Source of the DNA: a virus
Length of the DNA stretch: 18,673 bases
Direction: 5' to 3' (one strand)
IMG/VR virus record: IMGVR_UViG_3300045988_025756
Span: 1-18,673 of that record
Shown here: positions 1 through 18,673 of the stretch, one piece after another
How positions within the stretch are numbered: the first letter of the stretch is position 1
Layout: every line of letters begins with the position of its first letter
Position numbers and translations under genes: made by a program
The notes under the pieces: model-generated
What the model saw: only the letters and a program-made list of their open reading frames with translations
Told to the model about the DNA's origin: nothing
The model's database searches: none

Positions 1-219
1 CTTTGGTTATTGAGCTTAAAGATAATTTTTACGATGTTTGTATAGATAGGGGAGGGCCCCCAGCAGCTATCCTTTTTCCACAACCGTTCTGTTCTGTGTC
101 TTGCTCTTGCGTTTTGTCTTGTGTTTTTTATTGCCGTTCTTGTTCTGCCATCTGTTATCGTTTCTGTTGTCTTCTGTTTTGCCTGCCTCTTTTCTGTTGT
201 TGATTCTGCGTGTTGTTTT
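1..219. repeat. Left inverted terminal repeat (perfect part)
   Basis: Bases 1-219 are the exact reverse complement of 18455-18673. I checked this block by block. The first mismatch is at 220 versus 18454. Confidence 0.97.
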
Positions 220-336
220 ATCTCGTAATTTAAGCGCGTAGATTTCTCGCTGTTTTTCTGTTGTTCGGCGTGTTGTGTTTGTGGTGTGGTATTATGTAAC
301 TATCAGCTAAGGAAAGGAAGGATGGTAATTGAGATG
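220..336. repeat. Imperfect inward extension of the left ITR (promoter, leader and first 5 codons)
   Basis: Conserved blocks are shared with the reverse complement of 18307-18454: TTAAGCGCGTAG, TGTTGTTCGGCGTGTTGTGTTT..GTGGTGTGGTATTAT, GGAAAGGATGGT(A/G)(A/G)TTGAGATG. Indels and mismatches lie between the blocks. Confidence 0.85.
258..300 (+). promoter_or_regulatory. Candidate left-end early promoter (extended -10 type)
   Basis: TGgTATTAT at 287-295 fits the extended -10 pattern TGnTATAAT with one deviation. No good -35 is present. The block is conserved in mirror image at the right end and lies ~27 nt upstream of the ATG at 322. Confidence 0.5.
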
Positions 337-573
337 CTTAGAACTAAGGCTTTGGTTATTGAGCTTAAAGATAATTTTTACGATGTTTGTATAGATAGGG
401 GAGGTGACCCAATTTTATATATGGTTCATGGCGCTATTGATGCTGAGATGGCTCTTCGCTCGGCTTTTGAATATAAGTATGGTGATTGTGATTATACGTA
501 TACGTGTTGCAGTAAAGATGGTGTTTACTGCCTATATGATGTTGAGGTAATTGATGAACCTTTTTATGAGTGA
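322..573 (+). CDS. Hypothetical small protein (left-end, inward-reading)
   Basis: This is the only plausible plus-strand gene. GGAAAGGAAGG lies directly upstream. The first codons (MVIEM) are shared with the right-end gene, and an alternative ATG lies at 334. Residues LVIELKDNFYDVCIDRGG are encoded by the internal copy of the terminal 55 bp. I recognise no family. Confidence 0.55.
   Translation: MVIEMLRTKALVIELKDNFYDVCIDRGGDPILYMVHGAIDAEMALRSAFEYKYGDCDYTYTCCSKDGVYCLYDVEVIDEPFYE
350..404 (+). repeat. Internal direct copy of the terminal 55 bp
   Basis: Bases 350-404 are identical to 1-55 (offset 349), and so are the reverse complement of 18619-18673. Identity breaks at 405 versus 56. Confidence 0.95.
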
Positions 574-3387: not shown

Positions 3388-4602
3388 TCAGAAGTTCGGT
3401 GGTGCGCTGGTGCCGTCCCATACATTCAGGAGCGAGTAGGCGGTGTTGTAGCGTGTCCCGTATGGTCCGAACGGGGATGTATTGAGGATATTATTATACA
3501 GTTGGGTGAGTGATGAAGAATGGGGCACGTTCAACGCGCCTGCCGGGCTTTGGTGATAAGCGCAAGTCCACAGTATCTGCATTTTCGCATCATCATACGT
3601 CTGCGGGTAGCTCTTGTAATCCTGTGCGAACTGATTACGCTGGCCTTGCCGTGATTCCGTGCGTCGCGCCCACGTCCGGAATGCCGCAACTTCGCTGCCG
3701 GTCATTGCTCTATCGAATGTGCCGCCCGATTCCATGAGCGCGGCGATACTCGGCGCGGCGGCGGCAAACGCCTCATATCCTACAGCGTCCACCGCCCTCA
3801 TCGCGTTCAAGACCTGCAAACGGCGTCCGAAACTCCACTGTGCGATGCCGATACCCTGATTATTTGATTCGACCGCATCCCAGCGCAATGATGACTCAAC
3901 GGTGCCGATTACATAGAGCGCGTATGAACTTTTCCCGTCGCCCACACTTGGCGTGCCCTGACCCCGGTCGGCGTCCGGCTGACCCGTGCCGCCGCGATAC
4001 ACCCAAGTCTGGGCGCTTGCCTTATAGAAAATGGCCTGCGATGATGTCGTGCCCGAGCCGCTATGATATACGAGATTGTCGCCCTGCAATTGAACCCACG
4101 CGGAGATATCGCCGTCCACACTCACGCCCGGGTTATTGCCGCCCGCCGGATTATCACCGGATTCCGGCGGTTCCGGCAATGCCGTTGGATGCAGATAGCC
4201 GAGTAGCTGCGAGCCTTTCATAAGCGGTAAGGTTCGGTGTACGGCGGGCGTCGGGTTTTGTGTCAGTACATCGATGTCGTCGCCTTGGATACCACCCCAC
4301 ACGATGGCTACGTGACTGCCGGGGTAGTTTTGACTGCCGAACTTCCAAAACACGACATCGCCCATGCCGGGCGTATAATTTGCGTCTTTTTTTTCAAAAA
4401 CGCGCCCCACGGCGGATGTGGTGGGGAACATGGTGTAATTGCCGTCCGCGTAGCCTGTCGGGGTGATGCAATCACCTAACGACAGATTGTAATTGTCCAT
4501 GCAGTATTTTGCCCATAGGTCCCAGCATTGGGCACCGTAAGCCCCGTCCATATCCCAATATTGGTTTTGGGTACGTTCCAACCATGCCTGTACGTCTACC
4601 AT
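3388..4602 (-). CDS. Tail-associated peptidoglycan hydrolase (N-terminal CHAP peptidase plus C-terminal phage tail lysozyme-like domain), functional analogue of phi29 gp13
   Basis: CHAP catalytic context: GAQCWDL (Cys) and PGSHVAIV (His). The C-terminal GIGIAQWSFGRR resembles the G-x-G-I-x-Q-W motif of the phage tail lysozyme family. The gene lies between the fibre genes and the ATPase. Confidence 0.82.
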   Translation of the reverse strand: MVDVQAWLERTQNQYWDMDGAYGAQCWDLWAKYCMDNYNLSLGDCITPTGYADGNYTMFPTTSAVGRVFEKKDANYTPGMGDVVFWKFGSQNYPGSHVAIVWGGIQGDDIDVLTQNPTPAVHRTLPLMKGSQLLGYLHPTALPEPPESGDNPAGGNNPGVSVDGDISAWVQLQGDNLVYHSGSGTTSSQAIFYKASAQTWVYRGGTGQPDADRGQGTPSVGDGKSSYALYVIGTVESSLRWDAVESNNQGIGIAQWSFGRRLQVLNAMRAVDAVGYEAFAAAAPSIAALMESGGTFDRAMTGSEVAAFRTWARRTESRQGQRNQFAQDYKSYPQTYDDAKMQILWTCAYHQSPAGALNVPHSSSLTQLYNNILNTSPFGPYGTRYNTAYSLLNVWDGTSAPPNF

Positions 4603-4611
4603 GATATTAGT

Positions 4612-4641
4612 ATACCCCGTCCGGCGTACCGGACGGGGTAT
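4612..4641. other. Perfect 13-bp-stem hairpin immediately upstream of the tail-lysin ATG
   Basis: ATACCCCGTCCGG-CGTA-CCGGACGGGGTAT. Its last base is the first base of the parS site. It overlaps a TATACT -10-like box at 4609-4614. Confidence 0.8.
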
Positions 4642-4656
4642 GTTTCACGTGGAACA
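4641..4656. promoter_or_regulatory. parS: parS site (ParB/Spo0J binding centromere), B. subtilis-type
   Basis: TGTTTCACGTGGAACA is the reverse complement of TGTTCCACGTGAAACA, the canonical B. subtilis parS 16-mer. The site is intergenic. Confidence 0.8.
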
Positions 4657-4680
4657 TGAGGATTCCCGATATTATCCATA

Positions 4681-4715
4681 AATAATAATATACCCCACGA
4701 CGGTAAGTCGTGGGG
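4681..4715 (-). terminator. Rho-independent terminator after the fibre gene
   Basis: A 9-bp GC-rich stem (CCCCACGAC / GTCGTGGGG) with a 5-nt loop. On the minus strand it is followed by TATATTATTATTTAT. It lies ~20 nt downstream of the stop at 4736. Confidence 0.7.
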
Positions 4716-4735
4716 TGTGGGGTCGGTGGGTATTG

Positions 4736-5638
4736 TCAGGCAGTGACAAAATATGACAAAGTTGCCGAAAGATTCAGATTTGATTGCGTTGTGGAGTTCG
4801 GGCCCGTTTGGTCTACGTACGGGTATCCTTCGGAGTTGATGCCAAAAAGAAGATGTGCCGGCACGGTATTCTCCGCCCCGATGAAAACATCAAGCAGTTG
4901 CCTTAACGCTCCGGCTGGCCTGTATTGTGATGGCATGGCCATCTCTGCCGGATTTAGGCCGCCACTCCAATTTGTCGCCGTGCCGGTTATGGTAACACGC
5001 AGTATGACAAGCTTTGCGATGGGGGAGTAGTAGGCATGGTAGTCAATTTTTGCTCCGTAGACGTTATCGGTAGTATGATATACCTCGATAGGGTTGACCC
5101 CACTTTTACGCAATGCTTCCAAGGCCGAGTTCGTTGTCGATATTTGGGAGGCATTGGAGCTAATACGGTTGTCAAGCGTTTCCGCGGTCCCGGCATATCC
5201 GCCCTGTTTGACAAACGTCGTGTCGGCCTGCGTCTTGGTATACACACTCGTGGTGTCGGCCTTGCCGGCAACCGTGCCGGATAGTGAGCTGACAGTCCCC
5301 TGCAATGCCGTCAACGCAGTGTTTTCCGCCTTGCCGTCGATGCTGGACTTCAGCGCCTGCGCGGTCTGAGTGGACGTGACGCCGAGCGCGTTGAAATACG
5401 ATTCCTGTTTGGCGATGTCGGTCTTATTGGTCTGCGCAAGTTGCTTCGCCGCGTCCGCCGCCGCCGTCGCGTTGTTCGCCGCCGCCGTCGCCGTGGTGAT
5501 GTTGGTGGCGTTGGTGTACATCTGATTGTCGATTTTCGTCATGGCGTCGGTGAAGTCACCGCGCCATGACGGGCGGTCGTTCGGGTTGTCGCCAAACGTC
5601 GGCAGATTATAATGCCCGGTATGCTGTGTGGTTGACAT
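4736..5638 (-). CDS. Tail fibre / receptor-binding protein
   Basis: The N-terminus (HTGHYNLPTFGDNPNDRPSWRGDFTDAMTKIDNQ) is of the kind conserved at phage fibre N-termini. An Ala/Thr/Gln-rich, coiled-coil-like shaft and a distinct C-terminal domain follow. The SD AAAGGAG lies 7 nt before the ATG. Confidence 0.65.
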   Translation of the reverse strand: MSTTQHTGHYNLPTFGDNPNDRPSWRGDFTDAMTKIDNQMYTNATNITTATAAANNATAAADAAKQLAQTNKTDIAKQESYFNALGVTSTQTAQALKSSIDGKAENTALTALQGTVSSLSGTVAGKADTTSVYTKTQADTTFVKQGGYAGTAETLDNRISSNASQISTTNSALEALRKSGVNPIEVYHTTDNVYGAKIDYHAYYSPIAKLVILRVTITGTATNWSGGLNPAEMAMPSQYRPAGALRQLLDVFIGAENTVPAHLLFGINSEGYPYVDQTGPNSTTQSNLNLSATLSYFVTA

Positions 5639-8484: not shown

Positions 8485-10734
8485 CTAGAATGAGATGCCC
8501 GGCAATGGGTCGTTATCCGCCCAATCGGTCACGCCGATATCATCCGGGTTAGTCCATATAGTAGCCCCAGACTCGAACACGCCTTTAATGGTCTGCCGAT
8601 ACTGCTCGGGCAAATCACCTCGCACGTAACACTCTTGCATCTGCCAGTAGGTGAATTTTGTCATACATTCCAGCGATTGCGGCGGCGTGATGAAACGCTG
8701 GATAAAATACCCGTAACGCAACATGTACTCTCCGACGCTCCGCAGAGCTGAGGGTGCGCACGTCTTAAATCGAACCAACACCCCGACAATACCGTTCGCG
8801 AGGTTAAAACCGTCTCCGCCGATGGCACCGGATGTGGTCGGGGGTGTTAATTGCATCTGCTGTACCTGTGCATTGATACCCGCAATGGTGTTTTGATAGT
8901 CTCCGAACGCGGAACGTTGCGCGTAATCCGCGTTCATATCCGCCATATTTTGGGCCAACTGGTTTGAAAGCGCTGTAGTCTGAGAGCCGTATGTGTTGGC
9001 CTGACTTGTTGTGGCCGCGTTGGTACTCAGCGAGTTCGCCGTGGAAAGTTGGGCGGCGGTATTGTTGATACTGCGGTTTGCTTCAGTGTTGACACCATTC
9101 ATGACCGCACCGCCTAATGCCGATACCGCGCCCCCGACATTGCCCGAAGCGGCGTTACCCGCCACCCCGACCACGCCGTTAACCACGTTATTCAGCTGTG
9201 CGAGGTCAGCTCGCTGATTGTTGATATACGTCGTGTTGTCCAGACTGGTGTTAAGCGAGGTTGCTTGTATCGCGTTATTGGCGTTGCGGTTGCCGATAGC
9301 GAGTTTGTTGGCTTGGGTATTGTACTGGTTTTGCATGGCCGTGGCCGCGAGAGACTGACTGATGCCCATCTGCGCTTTTTGGTACGCCCAGTCAGCGGAC
9401 TGTTGGCTGTAGGAACGAGTGTAGGCACTGTTTGCCATTGCCAACTGTGCGCCATTGTTGACTATCACAAATTGAGGGAAATTGCTGATGCCAAACGCGG
9501 CGTCCAACATTTCCCCGCTATCAATGGGCAACCCATTGTTTTTATCAAGAGGAGCAATCTCGCTTGCACCCGCCTTATTGTACCCAACCGGGTAAAAGTT
9601 CAAGCGCGCGCCATTGGGCGCGTAATTATGCACCTCTCTAATAACCAGATTATCGCTTTGGATATTTTCGGGCTTATAGGTGATATTAGTGCCATTCAAG
9701 CAAGTGCATTCAACAGTAGAATAGGGGTAGCATTTGAGTTTTTTAAGGTTTTTATAACGTTTAGGGATATTAAAATTATCACGAAAATCATTAATGGTAA
9801 TAATGTCTTCATATCTGCTGGGCGCATTTGTGGCCGACTGGGGGAAACGGTAGATACGATTATTTAATTCCGAAGGGAGTGTTTTCCCAAACAGCTTATC
9901 TACGACATAGCCGGATTGCTTAAGAAAGTCATCATCTAAAGAGGGTATCATGTACATGTTTACAATACCCTGTGTTATCCATGAAAAAGTAGAGCCCACT
10001 CCCATAAACACTTGGATAGACTGGATGTCCTTAAAGTACAGTATTTCAGCACCGTTAGCCATGTTCTCAAACAGAGAGCCGCCCGCAGTAGTGAGAGACG
10101 GTTTTTCCTGACTGCCCGCGTCCGCTGACAAATCTACCGTGCTCACGACTATTACGCCGTAATTCAGATTTTTCCCGTCCATGCTGATAAGAGACTTGTA
10201 CTGTTGGATTACCGTCACCATTTCGCTACCGGTGTCCAGCCCTTCGGGTAGTGCGAGATAACTGCGACCATAATCGGTCATCTGGTTTTCGTTGGCAATG
10301 CCGATATGGCCCCGCACCACATAGCATGAACCAAACCTAAGTACATGCTGGAACGACTGCCAAACGTCCAACTGTACAGTGAGCTGAGTAGTGTACGCAT
10401 TGATGTAATCCACGTGGTTGATGAAATAATACCAATACCGTGGCGCTTCCAAGTCGGGGTAGTCGTTATACACCACGACATAGTTGTAGTTGGACGCCTC
10501 GTTAAATGGCAGTTCGACGCGCACGGGTTGGCCGAACATGTGCATGACTCCATGCACCCTGTCAATGCCGGGCCGTCGGTCGAACCATTCCTGTTGTTTC
10601 TGCGGTGATTCGAACCGGGCTAGGTCACGGTAACTACTATCCCACGGCACGTTACAGAGTTTCAGCGACGTGTTGGGCGTCCATTGAGCCCAGTTAAACG
10701 TCGCCTCGACGTTAGGGTTGATATCTCTCAGCAT
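8485..10734 (-). CDS. Tail knob / distal tube protein, phi29 gp9-like
   Basis: N-terminal similarity: CNVPWDSSYRDLARF...WF versus ADVPFSNDYKNTRWF...WF, and WYYFINHVDYINAYTTQLTVQLDVWQSF versus [31 protein letters not shown]. C-terminal similarity: RYGYFIQRF...IKGVFESGATIWTNPDDIG versus KYGYKINRV...IRTIFDNGITLWHTDNIG. A Gly/Ala-rich loop (VVGVAGNAASGNVGGAVSALGGAV) resembles the gp9 membrane-active loop. I moved the start to ATG 10734 (SD AAAGGGA), because the upstream 14 codons are only the parS palindrome. Confidence 0.88.
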   Translation of the reverse strand: MLRDINPNVEATFNWAQWTPNTSLKLCNVPWDSSYRDLARFESPQKQQEWFDRRPGIDRVHGVMHMFGQPVRVELPFNEASNYNYVVVYNDYPDLEAPRYWYYFINHVDYINAYTTQLTVQLDVWQSFQHVLRFGSCYVVRGHIGIANENQMTDYGRSYLALPEGLDTGSEMVTVIQQYKSLISMDGKNLNYGVIVVSTVDLSADAGSQEKPSLTTAGGSLFENMANGAEILYFKDIQSIQVFMGVGSTFSWITQGIVNMYMIPSLDDDFLKQSGYVVDKLFGKTLPSELNNRIYRFPQSATNAPSRYEDIITINDFRDNFNIPKRYKNLKKLKCYPYSTVECTCLNGTNITYKPENIQSDNLVIREVHNYAPNGARLNFYPVGYNKAGASEIAPLDKNNGLPIDSGEMLDAAFGISNFPQFVIVNNGAQLAMANSAYTRSYSQQSADWAYQKAQMGISQSLAATAMQNQYNTQANKLAIGNRNANNAIQATSLNTSLDNTTYINNQRADLAQLNNVVNGVVGVAGNAASGNVGGAVSALGGAVMNGVNTEANRSINNTAAQLSTANSLSTNAATTSQANTYGSQTTALSNQLAQNMADMNADYAQRSAFGDYQNTIAGINAQVQQMQLTPPTTSGAIGGDGFNLANGIVGVLVRFKTCAPSALRSVGEYMLRYGYFIQRFITPPQSLECMTKFTYWQMQECYVRGDLPEQYRQTIKGVFESGATIWTNPDDIGVTDWADNDPLPGISF

Positions 10735-10759
10735 ACTATCCCTTTCATAAAGAAGGGAG

Positions 10760-10775
10760 TGTTTCACGTGAAACA
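10760..10775. promoter_or_regulatory. parS: parS site, perfect consensus palindrome
   Basis: TGTTTCACGTGAAACA. Flanking GGGAG/CTCCC extend it to a 26-bp perfect palindrome (10755-10780). It lies in the capsid / tail-knob intergenic gap. Confidence 0.85.
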
Positions 10776-10797
10776 CTCCCTTTTATTATATCGCAGA

Positions 10798-10908
10798 TTA
10801 GGCGACTGTCAGTGCCTGACCGCTGACACCGAACAGCGCTGCCGTCAGCTTGGTGGAACCGGCGGCCACTCCAGTGACTAGGCCGGTATTGTCCACTAGG
10901 GGTTCGCG
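10798..10908 (-). pseudogene. Relic 3' fragment of a Big_2 (Ig-like) domain coding sequence
   Basis: The minus-strand frame reads REPLVDNTGLVTGVAAGSTKLTAALFGVSGQALTVA-stop. This parallels the capsid C-terminus VSESGVITGVKAGTSDISATLFGVSGKKQVTVS-stop. The frame opens just after a TGA and has no ATG or SD. Confidence 0.65.
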
Positions 10909-10941
10909 TCATCAATCATCATCCAACCTCCGGTATGACAA

Positions 10942-10974
10942 AGCCCGGAGCGCTCACGTGGCTTGCGCTCCGGG
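10942..10974 (-). terminator. Second hairpin downstream of the capsid gene (terminator candidate)
   Basis: An 11-bp stem (GCCCGGAGCGC / GCGCTCCGGGC) with an 11-nt loop. On the minus strand it is followed by TTTGTCAT. Confidence 0.6.
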
Positions 10975-10996
10975 CCTTGTCCTGCATCACACCGTG

Positions 10997-11024
10997 AGAG
11001 AGGGTAGCCAGTCAGCTACCCTCT
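10997..11024 (-). terminator. First hairpin downstream of the capsid gene (terminator candidate, no U-tract)
   Basis: An 11-bp stem (GAGAGGGTAGC / GCTACCCTCTC) with a 6-nt loop. It starts 10 nt after the capsid stop codon (11035-11037). Confidence 0.55.
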
Positions 11025-11034
11025 CATTGTATCA

Positions 11035-12762
11035 CTAGGATACTGTCACCTGCTTCTTACCGGACACGCCGAACAGCGTGGCGGAGATATCAGAGGTGCC
11101 CGCCTTGACGCCCGTGATAACACCCGACTCGGACACGGTGGCGTTGGCCGGGGTGCCGGATGTCCACGCGGCCTGCGCGGTCACGTCGGCGGTTCGACCG
11201 TCAATCATGGTCGCCGTAGCGGTCGCCTGTGCCGTATGACCCACAGTCACACCCGAGGCATTGACGGCAATCGACGCGATGATAGACGGATTGAATCCGA
11301 TGACGCCATCGCCGACCACCGGCACACTCAGAGCGGCGGACACGGTGTCCGGCACTTCCGGCGTCGCCGGATTCGTATACAGGGCGGTAGCCGTGACCGG
11401 AATAGCGGTGTTCGGTTCGTCAAGACCGACCACCAGCACGCCGGTGGGCGAAATGTACGTGTAATCGCTCTTCGGCTTGGCGGTGTCGCCAATACGATAC
11501 TCAACCGCATTCGAGCGGAACGTGGCCGTGCCATCGTTGGTAATGGTCGTATCGGCAGTGACCTGCACCGCTCCGCCACGCGCCACGTTCTCCGGCGTGG
11601 TCGAACCGCCGCCGTACATAGCGAGCTTAAGTTGGAAGGTCGGCGTCTTGGCCGTCGTACCGGTAGGTGCCACCACGTTCGTGGTGGCGCCCTTTCCCGT
11701 CCAGAACATGATGGCGGGGGCGAAGCCGGACACGCTAATGATGTGCTGGATATGCAGGTAATGGTTGACCGAATTGATGTTGACCGGGTTAACCTGCTGG
11801 GTCATCCCGCTGATAACGGGAATGTCAATGAGGAGCTTGTCCGTGGTGAGGATGGCCTGCACGCCGTCCATGTCGAACTTGTCTTGCGGGATGACGATAA
11901 TCCGGTCGATGGTCGGCTCGGCGTCCGTGCGCTGGAACACTGTGGCAAGGCCCTGCACGTCAAGCGCGGACTTGACTTCGGGCGAACAGAACAACACGAG
12001 TTCGTCCGGGCGGGCGAACGTCGGCATGTGACGCGCATTATACCGGGTGCTGACAAACTTCAGAGTGTCCGCCCATGCGCGAATCTGACGCAACATGTCG
12101 CGGGCGTCCGTTTCCGTCGAACCCATGTTATTGAGGTCATGCTCCATGTGGACACGCCAATAGCCGCCGAGCTTCGCATACTCGACGAACTGGTGGCACA
12201 TGGCCTCAAAAAGGTCAACCTCGGCGGCATTGTAACAGGAGGTGAGAATCTGGGAAGTGAGCGAGGCCAGACCGTTTTCGGACGTAAAGGCACGCTGGAG
12301 CGTCTTATCAGCCGTGGTCGCCGGATAGAAATGGGCAAAGTCCAGACGGTGATAGAGCGAATCCACGTCGATTTTCCACTTGCGGAAATTATCCGCGCCG
12401 AGATATTCCGCGTCCGGGTCATAGACCTGAGCGAGCGGCATGCCCACGGCGATTTCCTGCCACGTGTCGCCATACGCCTGAGATGCACGCTGGAACACGC
12501 TCAGCGGGTTGTTCCAACGCCACGTGTTCACGTAGGTGCCGCCGATACGGTTCACCAGCGCCGAATAAAACTCGTTCTTCAGTTGGGTGGATGACATGAG
12601 GGTGGCCATCTGCCTATCCATGTTCATCTGGGTGGCCGAGGGCATACGCCGCTGATATTCGGGTGATGCCTCGTTACGAATCATATTGAGAATCTGTGCG
12701 TTATTGAATTCGGTGAGCGGGCGAAGCTGCTGCTTCGGCGTCACCACTGGAGTGGTTGACAT
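11035..12762 (-). CDS. Major capsid protein (phi29 gp8 position) with C-terminal Ig-like Big_2 domains
   Basis: A large ORF directly after an acidic scaffold gene. The C-terminal ~180 aa look like Big_2 repeats (..ATVSESGVITGVKAGTSDISATLFGVSGKKQVTVS). The SD AGGAAGGA is present, and ATG 12762 is preferred over 12771 on spacing. The long antisense ORF is a shadow ORF. Confidence 0.85.
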   Translation of the reverse strand: MSTTPVVTPKQQLRPLTEFNNAQILNMIRNEASPEYQRRMPSATQMNMDRQMATLMSSTQLKNEFYSALVNRIGGTYVNTWRWNNPLSVFQRASQAYGDTWQEIAVGMPLAQVYDPDAEYLGADNFRKWKIDVDSLYHRLDFAHFYPATTADKTLQRAFTSENGLASLTSQILTSCYNAAEVDLFEAMCHQFVEYAKLGGYWRVHMEHDLNNMGSTETDARDMLRQIRAWADTLKFVSTRYNARHMPTFARPDELVLFCSPEVKSALDVQGLATVFQRTDAEPTIDRIIVIPQDKFDMDGVQAILTTDKLLIDIPVISGMTQQVNPVNINSVNHYLHIQHIISVSGFAPAIMFWTGKGATTNVVAPTGTTAKTPTFQLKLAMYGGGSTTPENVARGGAVQVTADTTITNDGTATFRSNAVEYRIGDTAKPKSDYTYISPTGVLVVGLDEPNTAIPVTATALYTNPATPEVPDTVSAALSVPVVGDGVIGFNPSIIASIAVNASGVTVGHTAQATATATMIDGRTADVTAQAAWTSGTPANATVSESGVITGVKAGTSDISATLFGVSGKKQVTVS

Positions 12763-13313: not shown

Positions 13314-14774
13314 TCATAGCACAAAAACATGGCCGTCATCATTGAGATGACGGGACCCCGGCAGAAACTCATCATAGGGGATGGGGGCGGCACGATGCAC
13401 GCCACTCAAACGCATTACCGTGTCACCATTCGTTTCCACGCCGCAATATTTACGATTGCCGAGAATGCGGAGCCTCTCATAGGTATGGTCGTTTTTCCAC
13501 GCCCCAAGCTTCCGGTTATCCGTTTCCACACCTTCGGGCGCGTCCAACCCTTCCAATATCATGCCGTCGGTGTCGGCGTAGAGTACGCGGTCGGCGTTTG
13601 CGTTCATCGCGCGGGATAGTGTTTGACGCCCGTAGGCGTTGACATAGGCGGCGGTCGGAAGCCACGCCAGACTGTTGGCCGACTCGGGCTTGTCCACGGT
13701 AAAATCCACACCCCCGTCCGCCGATGGTTTCGGGTGCAGCATTGGCCGGTACAGCGAGGCCCCGAATTTTCCTACCAACGAGTTCAGTAACAGTTTCGCT
13801 ATTTGCCGACGCTCTCCGGTTGCGGTTTGTTTTACGCAAAACCATTTATCGACATAGTTGTAATAAAGTCCGTGCGATTTACGGAATTTCCAACCGCCGA
13901 CATGCTCCCACACATGGATGTCATAGTTTTCGGTCAGCGTTTCCCAATCCACATCCGTGACTGGCATAGTTACGACGCCTAACGTACTGTCCAAGCGTTC
14001 GCCCTCATACCCCCATACGGGTAGGATGTTGGTGAGCGTCGCTGTTTTCCCCTTTTTCAATCTTGCATCAAACGCAATGATATCGATATGCAGTGGATAA
14101 TCATTGTCATGTCGATATTCGCCGTCATACCATATGGGTGAGTCTACCGGCATGGGTGTATCGCGCATGATACTCGGGTAGAGGCTATTTACGTCCCAGC
14201 TCCGGCAATCCCGGTATTCGCCCGGCTTGCTGTGTACTATCGCCCCATAGTAGGCGGGGCGCATCCGATGATAATCGTTCTTGTCCAATGGTGGGAAATG
14301 GCGTTTGAATCCGGCGTAATCCCCGTCGATATAGTCGGTCATCGCCATGGATGCTATCGTAGTGCCCTTGAAATTCAGGGCGGCGCATTCCTGTGCGATG
14401 TTCCACGTGGTTTCCAAATCGTCCGCACCGCCGAATGTTTCACGTGAAACATTCAGCCCATCGTCACGCGTGACATTGCGCACGTCCATAAAATCCACGG
14501 TGATGCCGCCCATGCGCACGCGGAAACTGTAAAAATGGCCACGAATATTAAAAGTGCCCCATATGCCATTCTTGGCCGGATTGGATTGTAATGGGAGTCG
14601 TTTCAATAGTTCGGCGGCTATAGGCTTGATGTCCTGCCATCCGTGGGCGCACCATACGCGCGTATGATAATCGAGCATGGTGAGGCGGATGATGGCGGTT
14701 GCCGTCAATGGTTCCATACCGTCATCCGTCAATAGTGTTGCGCCGTCTGTTGCCGCCGTTCGACGCTCTCTCAT
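13314..14774 (-). CDS. Protein-primed family B DNA polymerase (phi29 gp2-like), compact 486 aa
   Basis: Motif A: WDVNSLYPSIM. YPLHIDIIAFDARLKKG matches phi29 YPLHIQHIRCEFELKEG (TPR1 region). Motif B: QIAKLLLNSLVGKFG. A TPR2-length insertion is present. Motif C: VLYADTDGM. A KxY-like motif (NRKY) and a YxG(G/A) motif (YYGA) are also present. Confidence 0.95.
   Translation of the reverse strand: MRERRTAATDGATLLTDDGMEPLTATAIIRLTMLDYHTRVWCAHGWQDIKPIAAELLKRLPLQSNPAKNGIWGTFNIRGHFYSFRVRMGGITVDFMDVRNVTRDDGLNVSRETFGGADDLETTWNIAQECAALNFKGTTIASMAMTDYIDGDYAGFKRHFPPLDKNDYHRMRPAYYGAIVHSKPGEYRDCRSWDVNSLYPSIMRDTPMPVDSPIWYDGEYRHDNDYPLHIDIIAFDARLKKGKTATLTNILPVWGYEGERLDSTLGVVTMPVTDVDWETLTENYDIHVWEHVGGWKFRKSHGLYYNYVDKWFCVKQTATGERRQIAKLLLNSLVGKFGASLYRPMLHPKPSADGGVDFTVDKPESANSLAWLPTAAYVNAYGRQTLSRAMNANADRVLYADTDGMILEGLDAPEGVETDNRKLGAWKNDHTYERLRILGNRKYCGVETNGDTVMRLSGVHRAAPIPYDEFLPGSRHLNDDGHVFVL
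14436..14451. promoter_or_regulatory. parS: parS site, perfect consensus, embedded in the DNA polymerase ORF
   Basis: TGTTTCACGTGAAACA. It extends to the 22-bp palindrome GAATGTTTCACGTGAAACATTC (14433-14454) and encodes NVSRETF of the polymerase. Confidence 0.8.
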
Positions 14775-14786
14775 GATTCCATCCTT

Positions 14787-15731
14787 TTAGTGTCGTGTCG
14801 CGCTGGTCATCCATTCATCAAGTCGCGTCTCCACGTCGCCCGCATCCGCTTTTACCTCCCATTTATGTGTCTTATCATTATACCATGCGGCTTCTCGTAC
14901 CACGATGCTGAAATTCGTGTTGTTTATCAGCCATCGTTTTTGACGGTTCGACAAGGAGGCGAATTTTTGGGCTATGCTAGAATCGAATGCCTCAAGCTGC
15001 TGTGAGACCCTATCAAAATCCGCAACCCCCTCGTTCTCGGAAATTTTTCTAGTACCTGCATGCAATGGCGCTCGGCCTATAAGCCCAGCGTATTCGAGTA
15101 TCTCTCGTTCAAGTCTCCGCCGGCTCCCTTCTCGTATCATCACACGCGCGTGGCTTATTCCACGCTCCGAACCGAACACGTTCGCACGGTTGCGTGTGAG
15201 TTCGTCTCGCGCCGAACCGCCGACCGTGTGAGTGCCCAACACGTCAAACGGCGACTCTCCCGCACGTTCCATCTCACGCATTTCAGCCACGGTGTAGCGG
15301 GCCATACTCAACGCCTCGAATTGTTGGGCGCGTTTGATTTTCTGCCGTGCTTCGATACGGCGGCGTTGTTGCTGTCGTAATGTTTTCCGACGTTTTGACG
15401 GGGCGGCGGCGATTTCCGCATCGGTAATCGGCGGGCGCGCCGCCAGCACCCTATCAAGTTTCGTGATATGCACGTCGGGAACGACTTGATACGGTTCATT
15501 GTCACGCGCCCTTAAGGCTTGCTGCTGCTCCCCGAATTCATGCCCAATGCGGCGTGCGACCTGTTCGAGCTGCTGGGCGCTGAGTTTGCCTAGGAATGTT
15601 TCGGTGATTTGTTTTGGGAGGCGTCCGTTACTGTAATCCCTTACCGCTCGTTCTTGACGTACCTGTGCAGACCTGATGGCGGCGTTACGTTTCAGATTGT
15701 TGGCGCGTCGGTTGTTTTTACGTTTAGCCAC
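14787..15731 (-). CDS. Candidate terminal protein (replication primer)
   Basis: The gene lies immediately upstream of the protein-primed polymerase, as phi29 gene 3 precedes gene 2. The protein is 314 aa with a strongly basic N-terminus (MAKRKNNRRANNLKRN). It uses a GTG start with a strong SD (AGAGGAGGGG). I recognise no sequence family, so the call rests on position only. Confidence 0.55.
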   Translation of the reverse strand: MAKRKNNRRANNLKRNAAIRSAQVRQERAVRDYSNGRLPKQITETFLGKLSAQQLEQVARRIGHEFGEQQQALRARDNEPYQVVPDVHITKLDRVLAARPPITDAEIAAAPSKRRKTLRQQQRRRIEARQKIKRAQQFEALSMARYTVAEMREMERAGESPFDVLGTHTVGGSARDELTRNRANVFGSERGISHARVMIREGSRRRLEREILEYAGLIGRAPLHAGTRKISENEGVADFDRVSQQLEAFDSSIAQKFASLSNRQKRWLINNTNFSIVVREAAWYNDKTHKWEVKADAGDVETRLDEWMTSATRH

Positions 15732-16325: not shown

Positions 16326-16640
16326 TTAATTATTTTCCTCGGAGATGATATCATCTTCAACCACGTTGCCGTTCATCGACCCCGGATACTCGATGATGGT
16401 ATCATCTCCAAATTCACAATTAGCCCAATAGATTGCCTCATCCATGCGCGTTACCTGCGCATGATATTCAGCGGACATGGGCAACATGTCCTTGTTGATC
16501 TTGCGGGCTTTTTTCATTGCCATGTCAGCCGTGCGACACGCGCCGTCCACGACCACCTCGGCGTCCACGAGTTCCCCGTTTTCGCCGCGCGTAACACCGC
16601 TCACAATACTATAGTGCTTGGCTCGCTTAATATATGCCAT
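16326..16640 (-). CDS. Hypothetical early protein with an acidic C-terminal tail
   Basis: The ORF lies in the early operon. The SD AGAGG lies 7 nt before ATG 16640 (the track start at 16646 is also possible). The C-terminus is VVEDDIISEENN. I recognise no family. Confidence 0.6.
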   Translation of the reverse strand: MAYIKRAKHYSIVSGVTRGENGELVDAEVVVDGACRTADMAMKKARKINKDMLPMSAEYHAQVTRMDEAIYWANCEFGDDTIIEYPGSMNGNVVEDDIISEENN

Positions 16641-16658
16641 AATCATACCTCTTTCTTC

Positions 16659-17174
16659 TTAGTGTTGCTGCTGCTGTGACATTCTTGCGATGTCTTCATC
16701 AGTATATCGAACCTCGGTCAGGTTGTCAAAACAGAGAGACGCAATTTTGATGATGGTCTGAGCAAACTCATCACCCTCCCAAGTCTTGCACATCTCGTAG
16801 CAAGTCGCGCCCTTGACATGACAGACCGCGCACCACGCCACCATCGCCGGACAATAAACAAGCCCGGACAACATTTCAATGTCCTGCGTTCGTGATAATG
16901 CGGCGTACATTGATGAATGAGGCGAGATGCTTAGACAAATGTTCGCCGCGTGTTCGATACTGTCGGCAAACGCCACTTGACCGCCTTGGGGTTTATAAAA
17001 GTCCTTGAGTAGTGCTATACTACGACACAATGCCTCCCAATCGCCATCACCTTTATTATATTCCCGCAAGTGCAGGTTACGCCGACGGCCACGAATGACA
17101 CGGCGCACACGGTCATCATCCAAAATACCGTCATCAAACCAATTCGTGCGGTCATCATTACTCTTCATTTTCAA
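16659..17174 (-). CDS. Hypothetical early protein (Cys-rich segment)
   Basis: GGAGGTGAAGG lies ~10 nt before the ATG. A cluster CPAMVAWCAVCHVKGATCYEMC is present. I recognise no family. Confidence 0.6.
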   Translation of the reverse strand: MKMKSNDDRTNWFDDGILDDDRVRRVIRGRRRNLHLREYNKGDGDWEALCRSIALLKDFYKPQGGQVAFADSIEHAANICLSISPHSSMYAALSRTQDIEMLSGLVYCPAMVAWCAVCHVKGATCYEMCKTWEGDEFAQTIIKIASLCFDNLTEVRYTDEDIARMSQQQQH

Positions 17175-17237
17175 TATCCTTCACCTCCATAGTCACAGTA
17201 GGACAACCTTTTAACAAACACTTCGCATTACATATCA

Positions 17238-17489
17238 CTAACGCCTTTCAATCAACAAAGTATTAGCCAACGCCATCGCGTCAACCAGCATATGAGCCAC
17301 CTGCGCATAATCGCACGCATCAAACGCCACAGCCGACCAAATCAAACTACGCCTGCCACCAGACTGAGACCGCCTCGATACCGCATACCGCAGTTCATAC
17401 ATCCGATTATGAGGACAATACACCAAACACACATCACCGTCCTTAAACCCGGACGGAAACACGGACACAACCTCATCACTCACCATCAT
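17238..17489 (-). CDS. Hypothetical small early protein
   Basis: The start MMVSDEVV is preceded by GGGGGGTG and overlaps the stop of the upstream gene. I judge the track N-terminal extension to be non-coding. Confidence 0.55.
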   Translation of the reverse strand: MMVSDEVVSVFPSGFKDGDVCLVYCPHNRMYELRYAVSRRSQSGGRRSLIWSAVAFDACDYAQVAHMLVDAMALANTLLIERR

Positions 17490-17736
17490 CAAACACCCCC
17501 CCAAACGACAAACGCACCTTGACAATACCATTCAAAAAACCCGTTCTTGGGTCAAACGAGGAATGCTTAAAACCAGCATACACATCAAACCCGGTAAACA
17601 CATCGCGAACAACGTCAAGCACGCCATCCAACGCCTTATTAAACGTATCCGCCGGATACGGGCCATACACACCCACATACTCAGACGTGAGCTCATATAC
17701 CGTAAAATCATCAGGCGTAACAGTAAAACACCACAT
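17476..17736 (-). CDS. Hypothetical small early protein
   Basis: ATG 17736 (MWCFTV...) lies downstream of GGAAGGTGG. The N-terminus resembles that of the upstream gene (MWHYFTV...). Confidence 0.55.
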   Translation of the reverse strand: MWCFTVTPDDFTVYELTSEYVGVYGPYPADTFNKALDGVLDVVRDVFTGFDVYAGFKHSSFDPRTGFLNGIVKVRLSFGGVFDDGE

Positions 17737-17741
17737 ATTAA

Positions 17742-17987
17742 TCACACCCACCTTCCCCCATAAGTCCTATAAAATTCCTTAAAATCAAAATTACGATAAT
17801 ACTCAAAACCATCATCCAAGTCAACAAAAGACCTCATCGGAATCCAACGGCCACACATCCCATCATACATTTGAAACTGATAATCAACCCCACAGTAACC
17901 GCAAGTCGCCTCACGCCACCGAAAACGACGGTCTAAACCCGTGTACGTGTCAACAACAGTAAAATAATGCCACATATCAACCGTCAT
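17742..17987 (-). CDS. Hypothetical small early protein
   Basis: GGAAGG abuts ATG 17987. An alternative ATG at 17975 gives MWHYFTV. The protein is rich in aromatic and Cys residues. Confidence 0.55.
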   Translation of the reverse strand: MTVDMWHYFTVVDTYTGLDRRFRWREATCGYCGVDYQFQMYDGMCGRWIPMRSFVDLDDGFEYYRNFDFKEFYRTYGGRWV

Positions 17988-18063
17988 CCTTCCATGTTCC
18001 TCGGCTGATACTCACATTTGCCATCACAGTAATAACGCGGTACAGCGAACACCTGAACAAGTT

Positions 18064-18321
18064 TCATGCCCATCTCATCATCACCGTTTCCTCACCATAA
18101 AAACGCTCAGGATTCTCAGAAACAAACCTCACGAGGCGATAAATAAAGCCCACCATATTATCCATAGCCGAACAAACCTCACCAGAACAAGAATCATACG
18201 TTTCAGTGAAGAATTTTACAACCACAAACCTCTTTAGACGATAGCGCAAGATAAGAACCTCTTTCCCGTCCAAATCACCAGTCTCAAAACAAACAGAAAT
18301 ACCAGTCATCTCAACCACCAT
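18064..18321 (-). CDS. Hypothetical small protein (right-end, first early gene)
   Basis: The start ATGGTGGTTGAGATG mirrors the left-end gene start. GGAAAGG lies upstream, and an alternative ATG lies at 18309. The rest of the protein is unrelated to the left-end protein. Confidence 0.55.
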   Translation of the reverse strand: MVVEMTGISVCFETGDLDGKEVLILRYRLKRFVVVKFFTETYDSCSGEVCSAMDNMVGFIYRLVRFVSENPERFYGEETVMMRWA

Positions 18322-18454
18322 CCTTTCCGCATTCCTTGGTTGATACTTATATAATACCACACCACAAAAACACAACACGCCGAACAACACAAAAAACTAT
18401 AAAAAAACTACGCGCTTAAAATATAGACAAAACCACACGCTTAAAACCTGAAAC
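18307..18454. repeat. Imperfect inward extension of the right ITR (promoter, leader and first 5 codons)
   Basis: Mirror image of 220-336 with indels (see left copy). Confidence 0.85.
18346..18395 (-). promoter_or_regulatory. Candidate right-end early promoter (extended -10 type)
   Basis: On the minus strand, TGgTATTAT occupies plus-strand coordinates 18351-18359, within the conserved mirror block shared with 258-300. Confidence 0.5.
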
Positions 18455-18673
18455 AAAACAACACGCAGAATCAACAACAGAAAAGAGGCAGGCAAAACAG
18501 AAGACAACAGAAACGATAACAGATGGCAGAACAAGAACGGCAATAAAAAACACAAGACAAAACGCAAGAGCAAGACACAGAACAGAACGGTTGTGGAAAA
18601 AGGATAGCTGCTGGGGGCCCTCCCCTATCTATACAAACATCGTAAAAATTATCTTTAAGCTCAATAACCAAAG
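18455..18673. repeat. Right inverted terminal repeat (perfect part)
   Basis: Exact reverse complement of 1-219. Confidence 0.97.

What the first reader, a model, noticed from the sequence alone, without database searches (positions are those of the whole stretch)
14398..14454. Consensus parS maintained inside the DNA polymerase coding sequence, next to a half-site
Seen: the 22-bp perfect palindrome GAATGTTTCACGTGAAACATTC (14433-14454) contains the perfect parS at 14436-14451 and encodes residues NVSRETF of the polymerase N-terminal domain. About 23 bp upstream, TGTTCCACGTG (14398-14408) reproduces one parS half-site (11 of 16 positions) but then diverges. Inference: keeping an exact 16-bp palindrome inside an ORF means selection acts on the DNA site as well as on the protein. 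A ParB roadblock or spreading zone here would sit on the TP-DNAP operon and could throttle replication-gene expression. The site lies in the part of the polymerase that appears to have lost exonuclease function (see the separate finding), which may have relaxed the protein-level constraint.
Basis: partly seen in the sequence, partly recalled or inferred. Interest (0 to 1): 0.7.

Follow-up and report, generated by a model that had tools for sequence, protein, structure and literature searches.

The report
Host centromere sites on gut phage
A small phi29-like phage from the human gut, probably infecting Bifidobacterium, keeps exact copies of the bacterial chromosome's centromere sequence (parS) on its own DNA, one of them inside its polymerase gene. 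It most likely borrows the host's chromosome-sorting protein, a trick so far shown only for phage phi29 in a spore-forming host.

Summary
Window 14436-14451 is an exact 16-bp parS inside a 22-bp palindrome, encoding NVSRETF of the polymerase. It is not chance. The window is a complete 18.7-kb phi29-like linear genome with two perfect parS and one 1-mismatch site (0.13 expected at up to 3 mismatches).

Across 80 relatives the site is kept at the DNA level:
- Synonymous changes are about 3-fold rarer than expected inside the site and above average in its flanks.
- The peptide would spell parS with probability 1.6e-4 under the phage's codon usage.
- One sublineage keeps the peptide but has lost this and every other parS.

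Relatives carry up to four sites, two in the polymerase gene, and site positions turn over. The phage encodes no detectable ParA or ParB.

The closest precedent is phi29, whose five parS-like sites (four of them inside genes in the annotated record) are reported to be bound by host Spo0J for spore entrapment. Here the host is probably Bifidobacterium, which does not sporulate, so that purpose cannot apply.

My best reading is that host ParB loads at these sites and the phage genome rides the host segregation machinery. The nearby half-site is not conserved as a parS. I class this as a new variant of a known kind.

The parts
14436..14451 (.). parS site A: exact 16-bp consensus TGTTTCACGTGAAACA inside the polymerase gene (codons 108-113, N-V-S-R-E-T). 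This is the site in the finding.
   Evidence: It is conserved in relatives: 45 perfect and 22 with one mismatch among the 76 copies found with up to 3 mismatches. Synonymous changes are depleted.
14433..14454 (.). 22-bp perfect palindrome GAATGTTTCACGTGAAACATTC that contains site A.
   Evidence: The three extra bases on each side are codon-constrained, and the outer pair is not conserved as a palindrome (C in 50 and T in 26 at +19). The functional unit is therefore the 16-mer.
14399..14409 (.). Half-site-like 11-mer TGTTCCACGTG (codons T-W-N); probably not functional.
   Evidence: It matches parS at 10 of 16 positions. 32 of 77 relatives carry an extra mismatch, and a single such 11-mer is not unexpected by chance.
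13828..13843 (.). Decayed parS site B in the polymerase gene. On the coding strand it reads GGTTTTGCGTAAAACA (W-F-C-V-K-Q), 4 mismatches to parS.
   Evidence: Most relatives have GGTTTCACGTGAAACA here (47 of 75), where the single mismatch is forced by the Trp codon TGG.
10760..10775 (.). parS site C (type C1): exact consensus, intergenic, 41 nt upstream of the tail-knob ATG at 10734.
   Evidence: The same position is perfect in nearly all relatives that have the window-type knob start.
10755..10780 (.). 26-bp perfect palindrome GGGAG-parS-CTCCC around site C.
10785..10812 (-). Best promoter-like site in the region scanned (-35 CTGACA, 16-nt spacer, -10 TATAAT). It places site C at about +1 to +20 of the predicted transcript.
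   Evidence: 11 of 12 consensus positions; the TATAAT is conserved in relatives. This is a consensus match only.
4641..4656 (.). parS site D: TGTTTCACGTGGAACA (1 mismatch, the same variant as four phi29 sites). It is intergenic, between the tail-fibre gene and the CHAP tail-lysin gene.
   Evidence: It lies in a segment 84% identical to gut phage record MT836241, which has a perfect parS there.
13314..14774 (-). [quoted passage not shown]
   Evidence: PF03175, E = 7.8e-35; phi29 polymerase 1xhx, E = 2.7e-44 over residues 155-443; hhalign alignment starts at residue 132.
14787..15731 (-). Putative terminal protein, assigned by position only.
   Evidence: No family hit. It occupies the same position as phi29 gene 3 and BP1 gp15.
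1..256 (.). Left inverted terminal repeat; its partner is at 18418-18673. This shows the window is a complete linear genome.
   Evidence: 256 nt, 95% complementary.
18418..18673 (.). Right inverted terminal repeat.

Best explanation
The 16-mer at 14436-14451 is a genuine chromosomal-type parS, the loading site for the bacterial centromere protein ParB. It is one of three such sites on this complete 18.7-kb phi29-like linear phage genome; close relatives carry up to four. Purifying selection on the DNA sequence keeps it, on top of the polymerase's coding constraint.

The phage has no recognisable ParA or ParB, so the reader of the site is inferred to be the host's chromosomal ParB. The host is probably a Bifidobacterium.

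Inferred mechanism: ParB-CTP clamps load at the sites and spread over the small genome. The phage DNA is then handled like host origin-proximal DNA by the ParA, SMC and pole-anchoring machinery, so it is positioned and passed to daughter cells when lysis is delayed. This is centromere mimicry. It is the same principle reported for phi29, which uses Spo0J and parS to be carried into the forespore, but here it operates in a host that does not sporulate.

Shown: the sites, their excess over chance, their DNA-level conservation, their turnover and coordinated loss, and the absence of any detectable phage par gene. Inferred: ParB binding, the host assignment and the benefit to the phage.
For: 1. 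Excess over chance: 3 sites against 0.13 expected.
2. Conservation: sites A, B and C recur at fixed positions in 80 relatives whose polymerase genes are only 82-96% identical at the nucleotide level.
3. DNA-level selection at site A: 17 synonymous changes against 50 expected (p about 0.005), with fast-evolving flanks. Rare codons GTT, TCA and ACA (13-14% usage each) are used, giving a joint probability of 1.6e-4.
4. Protein bent to fit the site: site B uses F-H-V between a conserved W and K where other phages have variable residues, and its only mismatch is forced by the Trp codon.
5. Turnover: the third site is either intergenic (C1) or inside the knob gene (C2, R-F-V-S-R-E-T-Q), never both.
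6. Coordinated loss: L056, L061 and L065 keep the peptides but have lost A, B, C and D.
7. No phage partner: no ParA, ParB or HTH hit in any ORF, and no early gene co-varies with parS presence.
8. Precedent: phi29 has 5 parS-like sites, four inside annotated genes, described as Spo0J sites used for prespore segregation (PMC2731898).
9. Generality: of the first 80 IMG/VR contigs with a perfect parS, 18 are phi29-like. They come from many lineages and often carry 2-4 perfect sites, some inside polymerase ORFs. A same-composition control palindrome hits only 8 contigs, none of them phi29-like.
10. Host: gene order matches Bifidobacterium phages BP1, BD811P2 and BadAztec1. The endolysin is 75% identical to the BD811P2 lysin over residues 1-178 and 69-71% identical over its full length to chromosomal amidases of Bifidobacterium bombi and B. 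aemilianum. A Bifidobacterium genome is among 12 gut genomes reported to have ParABS homologues and consensus parS sites (PMC10197239).
Against: - ParB binding has not been shown, and the host is inferred from homology, not demonstrated.
- The three isolated Bifidobacterium phi29-like phages examined have no parS, so the sites are not needed to infect the genus.
- No relative of this phage was found in the 185,579 species-representative bacterial genomes, so there is no positive sign of stable carriage.
- Site C sits right after a strong promoter-like element, which fits a regulatory role at least for that site.
- The window itself has let site B decay, so individual sites are dispensable.
Confidence: 0.55

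Rival explanations
1. Transcriptional throttle. ParB bound at the sites, or spreading from them, blocks RNA polymerase and damps expression of the TP-polymerase operon and the late genes, delaying the lytic programme.
For: Site C lies at about +1 to +20 of the best promoter-like element in the region scanned, inside a 26-bp palindrome, and this arrangement is conserved in about 40 relatives. Site D lies between a terminator-like hairpin and the start of the lysin gene. From general knowledge, some ParB-family proteins such as KorB and P1 ParB can silence genes.
Against: - Site A has no promoter-like element next to it.
- 33 relatives have the third site inside the knob coding sequence instead of at the promoter.
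- Sites change position while their number is kept, which is not how operators behave.
- From general knowledge, chromosomal ParB spreading in Bacillus subtilis has little effect on transcription.
- This role is not exclusive of the centromere-like role.
Confidence: 0.15
2. ParB sponge. Replicating phage genomes present hundreds of parS copies that draw ParB away from the host origin, disturbing host chromosome segregation or division to the phage's benefit.
For: There are several high-affinity sites per genome on a replicon that multiplies. The trait recurs in many phi29-like lineages. No phage partner protein is detectable.
Against: There is no direct evidence. The benefit to a lytic phage is unclear. 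The only experimental precedent (phi29, PMC2731898) points to segregation of the phage genome, not to damage to the host.
Confidence: 0.12
3. Spore entrapment exactly as in phi29. The real host is a spore-forming Firmicute, and the sites carry the phage genome into the forespore.
For: This is the documented function of parS in phi29. Many other parS-bearing phi29-like contigs have 35-48% G+C, which fits Firmicute hosts.
Against: - For this clade, the gene order, the nearest polymerases and the endolysin all point to Bifidobacterium, which does not sporulate (general knowledge).
- Genome G+C is about 54%.
- Spo0A boxes (TGTCGAA) are not enriched: 4 found against 2.8 expected.
Confidence: 0.05
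4. The palindrome is read by some protein other than ParB (a phage regulator or a host CACGTG-binding factor), or it is a by-product of coding and chance.
For: Nothing beyond the fact that ParB binding has not been shown. Several small early ORFs have no known function.
Against: - All 16 positions match the ParB consensus at several sites.
- Unrelated phi29-like lineages with different early genes converge on the same 16-mer.
- No early gene tracks presence or loss of the sites.
- Chance is excluded.
Confidence: 0.05

Closest known systems
parS sites of Bacillus phage phi29, bound by host Spo0J (ParB) and used for entrapment of the phage genome in the spore (Meijer et al. 2005, as summarised in PMC2731898)
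   Same: - Same phage type: small protein-primed podovirus with a phi29-like capsid protein, connector, gp16 ATPase, SSB and polymerase.
- Same motif: phi29 has four copies of TGTTTCACGTGGAACA, which is identical to window site D, plus one 3-mismatch site.
- Several sites are scattered over the genome, mostly inside genes.
- Neither phage encodes a ParB.
   Different: - The host is probably Bifidobacterium, a non-sporulating actinobacterium.
- Spo0A boxes are not enriched.
- Two sites here are perfect consensus, whereas none of the phi29 sites is.
- The positions are not homologous (polymerase, pre-knob and pre-lysin here; genes 3, 10, 15, 17 and after gene 16 in phi29), so the sites were acquired independently.
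Chromosomal ParABS centromeres (parS clusters near oriC, bound by ParB-CTP clamps that recruit SMC and interact with ParA)
   Same: Identical 16-bp consensus sequence, present in several copies.
   Different: The sites are on a virus, not near an origin of chromosome replication. There are no adjacent parA or parB genes. Some sites are embedded in coding sequence.
Self-encoded partition cassettes of plasmid-prophages (P1, N15, and mycobacteriophages with parABS)
   Same: A phage genome carries centromere sites that could secure inheritance of an unintegrated genome.
   Different: Those phages encode their own ParA and ParB and have their own parS sequences clustered next to those genes. Here there are only cis sites of the host type and no par genes.

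Membership tests
Chromosomal-type parS (ParB loading site) | 16-bp palindrome matching TGTTNCACGTGAAACA | tested here: met
   16 of 16 positions at 14436-14451 and 10760-10775; 15 of 16 at 4641-4656.
Chromosomal-type parS (ParB loading site) | More copies than chance gives, and conserved at the DNA level | tested here: met
   3 sites against 0.13 expected. Conserved in 80 relatives with depleted synonymous change. A control palindrome is rare in viral contigs.
Chromosomal-type parS (ParB loading site) | Specific binding and CTP-dependent loading of ParB | not testable with these tools
   Needs EMSA, BLI or ChIP-seq with the host's ParB.
Chromosomal-type parS (ParB loading site) | The host has ParB and uses this consensus | tested here: inconclusive
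   The host is inferred to be Bifidobacterium. A Bifidobacterium genome is among 12 gut genomes reported to have ParABS homologues and 1-10 consensus parS sites (PMC10197239). The actual host genome was not examined.
phi29-type phage parS used for Spo0J-dependent spore entrapment | phi29-like protein-primed podovirus carrying several host-type parS sites and no ParB of its own | tested here: met
   phi29 for comparison.
phi29-type phage parS used for Spo0J-dependent spore entrapment | The host forms endospores | tested here: not met
   The host is inferred to be Bifidobacterium from gene order, nearest polymerases and endolysin. The genus does not sporulate (general knowledge). This rests on inference, not on isolation.
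phi29-type phage parS used for Spo0J-dependent spore entrapment | Accompanying Spo0A boxes at early and late promoters | tested here: not met
   TGTCGAA occurs 4 times against 2.8 expected, and none is at the promoter-like sites.
Self-encoded phage or plasmid ParABS partition cassette (P1, N15 type) | parA and parB genes encoded next to the centromere | tested here: not met
   No ParA, ParB or HTH family hit in any ORF with Pfam, NCBIfam or PHROGs.

The most novel reading that the evidence does not exclude
Borrowing the host's ParB through cis-only parS sites is a general, repeatedly evolved trait of phi29-like protein-primed phages, and it is not tied to sporulation. In this very abundant human-gut Bifidobacterium phage clade the sites would act as a protein-free centromere. 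A nominally virulent, unintegrated linear genome could then be tethered, and inherited by both daughter cells, during delayed or suspended infection (a carrier state). That would help explain the long-term coexistence of virulent phages with their gut hosts.
Probability: 0.3. Interest if true: 0.8.

Novelty: new variant of a known kind. Interest (0 to 1): 0.6.

Why it matters
Host-type parS sites on a phage have one experimental precedent, phi29, where they are explained by capture into the spore. Finding better sites, under clear DNA-level selection, in a phage clade of a non-sporulating gut actinobacterium means that explanation cannot be the whole story.

The clade is abundant: its polymerase cluster at 90% identity has 2,144 members. 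Together with the many unrelated phi29-like metagenomic phages that carry several perfect parS sites, this suggests a general strategy in which small linear phages use the host segregation machinery.

The question is directly testable by ParB ChIP and by synonymous recoding; nature has already supplied a recoded version in L056, L061 and L065. It bears on how virulent gut phages persist with their hosts. It is also a clean example of a DNA-binding site written into coding sequence and shaping the choice of amino acids.

Tried and rejected
1. Specificity switch. The sublineage L056, L061 and L065 has a still-palindromic variant, CGTCTCACGTGAGACG, at site A and a similar change at site C. A scan of 185,579 species genomes gave 70 single scattered hits, with no Bifidobacterium and no clusters. 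The shared changed positions (1, 13, 16) are third codon positions in both sites, which lie in the same reading frame. This is decay, not a new parS.
2. Functional half-site at 14399-14409. It is not conserved as parS-like, and one such 11-mer is not unexpected by chance.
3. Extended 22-bp or 26-bp palindrome as the recognised unit. The flanks are not conserved as palindromes across relatives.
4. Spo0A boxes as in phi29. They are not enriched.
5. A phage-encoded ParA, ParB or other partner. No family hits were found, and no early gene co-varies with the sites.
6. The phage as a resident element in bacterial genome assemblies. No relative of the polymerase was found in the species-representative genomes.
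7. A pRNA or other known RNA. No Rfam hit at gathering score.
8. parS in isolated Bifidobacterium phi29-like phages BP1, BD811P2 and BadAztec1. None was found, apart from one 3-mismatch hit in BadAztec1 that is consistent with chance.
9. Primary literature. The phi29 paper (Meijer 2005) and Livny 2007 are not held in the library. I relied on the summaries in PMC2731898 and PMC10197239.
10. Special link between parS and polymerase genes. In other phi29-like lineages about 4 of roughly 26 perfect sites fall in polymerase ORFs, close to the share of the genome that gene occupies.
Full report
**What the window is.** The 18,673-bp window is a complete linear genome with 256-bp inverted terminal repeats. 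All recognisable genes lie on the minus strand:
- early genes: a phi29-type SSB, a putative terminal protein, and a protein-primed family B polymerase (13314..14774);
- structural genes: scaffold, phi29-type major capsid protein, tail knob, connector, lower collar and tail fibres;
- lysis and packaging genes: a CHAP tail lysin, the gp16 packaging ATPase, holin and amidase.

It is a phi29-like podovirus.

**The observation.** One search shows GAATGTTTCACGTGAAACATTC at 14433-14454, with TGTTTCACGTGAAACA at 14436-14451. On the coding strand this is CDS nt 324-339, reading AAT GTT TCA CGT GAA ACA (TTC) = N-V-S-R-E-T-(F), codons 108-114.

**Is it chance?** No. The window has three parS matches with up to 3 mismatches: 14436-14451 and 10760-10775 are perfect, and 4641-4656 has one mismatch. 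The expectation is 0.13, and none of 200 shuffles reached three. In all IMG/VR viral contigs, a control palindrome with the same core and composition (TTGTTCACGTGAACAA) occurs in only 8 contigs.

**Relatives.** Eighty IMG/VR relatives, mostly human gut, have polymerases 87-97% identical in protein and 82-96% identical in DNA. The clade is very abundant: the 90%-identity clusters hold 2,144 polymerase and 3,733 capsid sequences. parS sites recur at fixed places:

| Site | Position | State in relatives | State in the window |
|---|---|---|---|
| A | polymerase CDS nt 324-339 | 45 perfect, 22 with one mismatch, of 76 copies found with up to 3 mismatches | perfect (this finding) |
| B | polymerase CDS nt 932-947 | GGTTTCACGTGAAACA in 47 of 75 | decayed, 4 mismatches (13828-13843) |
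| C | in front of, or just inside, the tail-knob gene | 60 of 71 perfect | perfect (10760-10775) |
| D | between tail fibre and tail lysin | variable | 1 mismatch (4641-4656) |

At site B the single mismatch in relatives is the G of the Trp codon TGG, so the protein forbids a perfect site.

**DNA-level selection at site A.**
- On a neighbour-joining tree built with the sites masked, third-position changes in codons 108-112 number 17 against 50 expected for matched degeneracy (p about 0.005). For codons 107-112 they number 19 against 61 (p about 0.001). The flanking codons change faster than average, 110 against 59.
- Nucleotide diversity tells the same story. Among six-codon windows, 107-112 ranks 6th lowest of 367, and only the first codons of the gene rank lower.
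- Under the phage's own codon usage, NVSRET would spell parS with probability 1.6e-4. GTT, TCA and ACA are each used for only 13-14% of their amino acid. Yet 41 of 68 relatives with NVSRETF have the exact 16-mer.

**A natural control.** One sublineage (L056, L061, L065) keeps NVSRETF but encodes it as CGTCTCACGTGAGACG, four synonymous transitions away from parS. The same genomes have also lost sites B, C and D. So the peptide does not need the site. Where the system is abandoned, all sites drift together; elsewhere they are held.

I tested whether this variant is a new parS specificity. It gives only 70 single scattered hits in 185,579 species genomes, none in Bifidobacterium and none clustered. 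The shared changed positions are simply third codon positions in two sites that share a reading frame. It is decay.

**Turnover.** 'Site C' is really two alternative positions.
- About 40 genomes, the window included, have it in the intergenic region 41 nt before the knob ATG. It follows a conserved TATAAT and sits inside GGGAG-parS-CTCCC.
- 33 genomes have it about 150 nt further on, inside the knob gene, where it encodes R-F-V-S-R-E-T-Q.
- No genome has both.

The window still carries the remnant of the older knob start (GGAGGTTGG ATG ATG ATT GAT GAC GCG AAC CCC TAG, about 10930-10893). A 5' replacement therefore swapped one parS position for another. Keeping the number of sites while positions change is what a position-tolerant loading site should do. 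It is not what an operator should do.

**The sites shape the protein.**
- Site A lies in a segment that differs between Bifidobacterium-phage polymerases: BadAztec1 has TELFETFGG, and BP1 and BD811P2 have a deletion.
- Site B occupies the variable residues between a conserved W and K; phi29 has W-T-Y-I-K there.
- The N-terminal 131 residues do not align to the phi29 exonuclease domain by Pfam, phmmer or hhalign.

Loss of exonuclease activity itself was not tested.

**The half-site.** 32 of 77 relatives carry a further mismatch. Its conservation follows the T-W-N codons, and one such 11-mer is not unexpected by chance. I regard it as not functional.

**Who reads the sites?** No ORF hits ParA, ParB or any DNA-binding family in Pfam, NCBIfam or PHROGs. 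The conserved early genes are present both in the lineage that lost parS and in parS-free Bifidobacterium phages. The variable small ORFs at the right end do not track the sites. Unrelated phi29-like lineages converge on the same 16-mer.

**Host.**
- Gene order is the same as in Bifidobacterium phages BP1, BD811P2 and BadAztec1, which are also the nearest polymerase relatives at about 34-37% identity.
- The endolysin is 75% identical to the BD811P2 lysin over residues 1-178. Over its full length it is 69-71% identical to chromosomal amidases of Bifidobacterium bombi and B. aemilianum.
- From general knowledge, Bifidobacterium does not sporulate.
- A Bifidobacterium is among 12 gut genomes reported to have ParABS homologues and consensus parS sites (PMC10197239).

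**Comparison with what is known.** phi29 is reported to carry five parS sites bound by Spo0J, the B. subtilis ParB, and these are implicated in moving the infecting genome into the prespore (PMC2731898). In the phi29 record I find exactly five matches:
- four copies of TGTTTCACGTGGAACA, in gene 10, in gene 15, just after gene 16 and in gene 17;
- one 3-mismatch site in gene 3.

Intragenic host-type parS on a phi29-like phage is therefore a known kind of thing. The differences here are several. The host is probably not a spore-former, and Spo0A boxes are not enriched. Two of the sites are perfect, and their positions are not homologous to those of phi29. The three isolated Bifidobacterium phi29-like phages examined have none, so the trait is specific to this clade.

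**A wider pattern.** Of the first 80 IMG/VR contigs returned for a perfect parS, 18 are phi29-like by tblastn, and only one belongs to the window's clade. Their G+C is 35-48%. Many carry 2-4 perfect sites, some inside polymerase ORFs and some as tandem pairs 24-34 bp apart. None of the 8 control-palindrome contigs is phi29-like. A 2024 review of phi29-like phages does not mention parS.

**Mechanism.** The best-supported account is this. Host ParB loads at the sites and spreads over the small genome, and the phage DNA is then treated like origin-proximal host DNA. In phi29 this delivers the genome into the forespore. In a non-sporulating, polar-growing actinobacterium the equivalent benefit would be positioning, and inheritance by daughter cells, when lysis is delayed. 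Binding and benefit are both inferred.

Two alternatives remain open, and neither excludes the main account. One is a regulatory role, most plausible for site C at its promoter. The other is titration of ParB by replicating phage DNA.

**Verdict.** The half-site and the roadblock emphasis are not supported. It is best filed as a new variant of the phi29 parS phenomenon in a host where the known purpose cannot apply.

Noticed in passing
window 13828-13843: A second parS position in the polymerase gene is near-perfect in most relatives (GGTTTCACGTGAAACA, W-F-H-V-K-Q). In this genome it has decayed to 4 mismatches, with a His-to-Cys change (W-F-C-V-K-Q).
   Followed up: yes
window about 10893-10930 (minus strand): Remnant of an older tail-knob gene start (GGAGGTTGG ATG ATG ATT GAT GAC GCG AAC CCC TAG). 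It matches the intact start MMIDDANPYVE of relatives such as L046 and L011. The knob 5' end was replaced by a module carrying a promoter-like element and a parS.
   Followed up: partly
window 350-411 compared with 1-62 and 18612-18673: The terminal 62 bp of the genome occur a third time, inside the left end at 350-411 (95% match to the right terminus). This may be a duplicated end or origin sequence.
   Followed up: no
window 16500-18500: Strong strand asymmetry at the right end: GC skew down to -0.42 and AT skew up to +0.35. This region of small ORFs is variable, and the ORFs are present in only some relatives.
   Followed up: partly
window 4446-5437; L084 (MT836241) 10083-11074: An 84% identical DNA segment is shared with a gut phage whose polymerase is only about 35% identical. 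It covers the tail-fibre 3' end, the intergenic parS and the lysin 5' end. This looks like a horizontally exchanged module that carries a parS.
   Followed up: partly
L093 6545/6579; L100 5525/5551 and 12130/12154; L107 5614/5648; L136 10302/10344: Other phi29-like metagenomic phages, with 38-43% G+C in these four contigs, carry tandem pairs of parS sites 24-42 bp apart in intergenic DNA. L093 and L107 also have two perfect sites inside a roughly 694-aa polymerase ORF.
   Followed up: partly
polymerase CDS codons 3-13, 119-128 and 424-427 (window about 14736-14768, 14391-14420, 13494-13505): Other stretches of the polymerase gene show unusually low synonymous diversity across relatives and are not parS. 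The cause is unknown; possibilities include translation initiation, RNA structure or another DNA signal.
   Followed up: no
L085 (GCA_001292545.1, contig CYGL01000165.1, 34.9 kb): An NCBI assembly contig joins a relative of this phage to about 10 kb of unrelated genes on the other strand, including a 1022-aa protein. It may be a chimeric assembly or two phages; the nature of the assembly was not established.
   Followed up: no
window, whole: No Rfam family, including the phi29 packaging RNA, reaches gathering score. If a pRNA exists, it is too divergent for the current model.
   Followed up: partly
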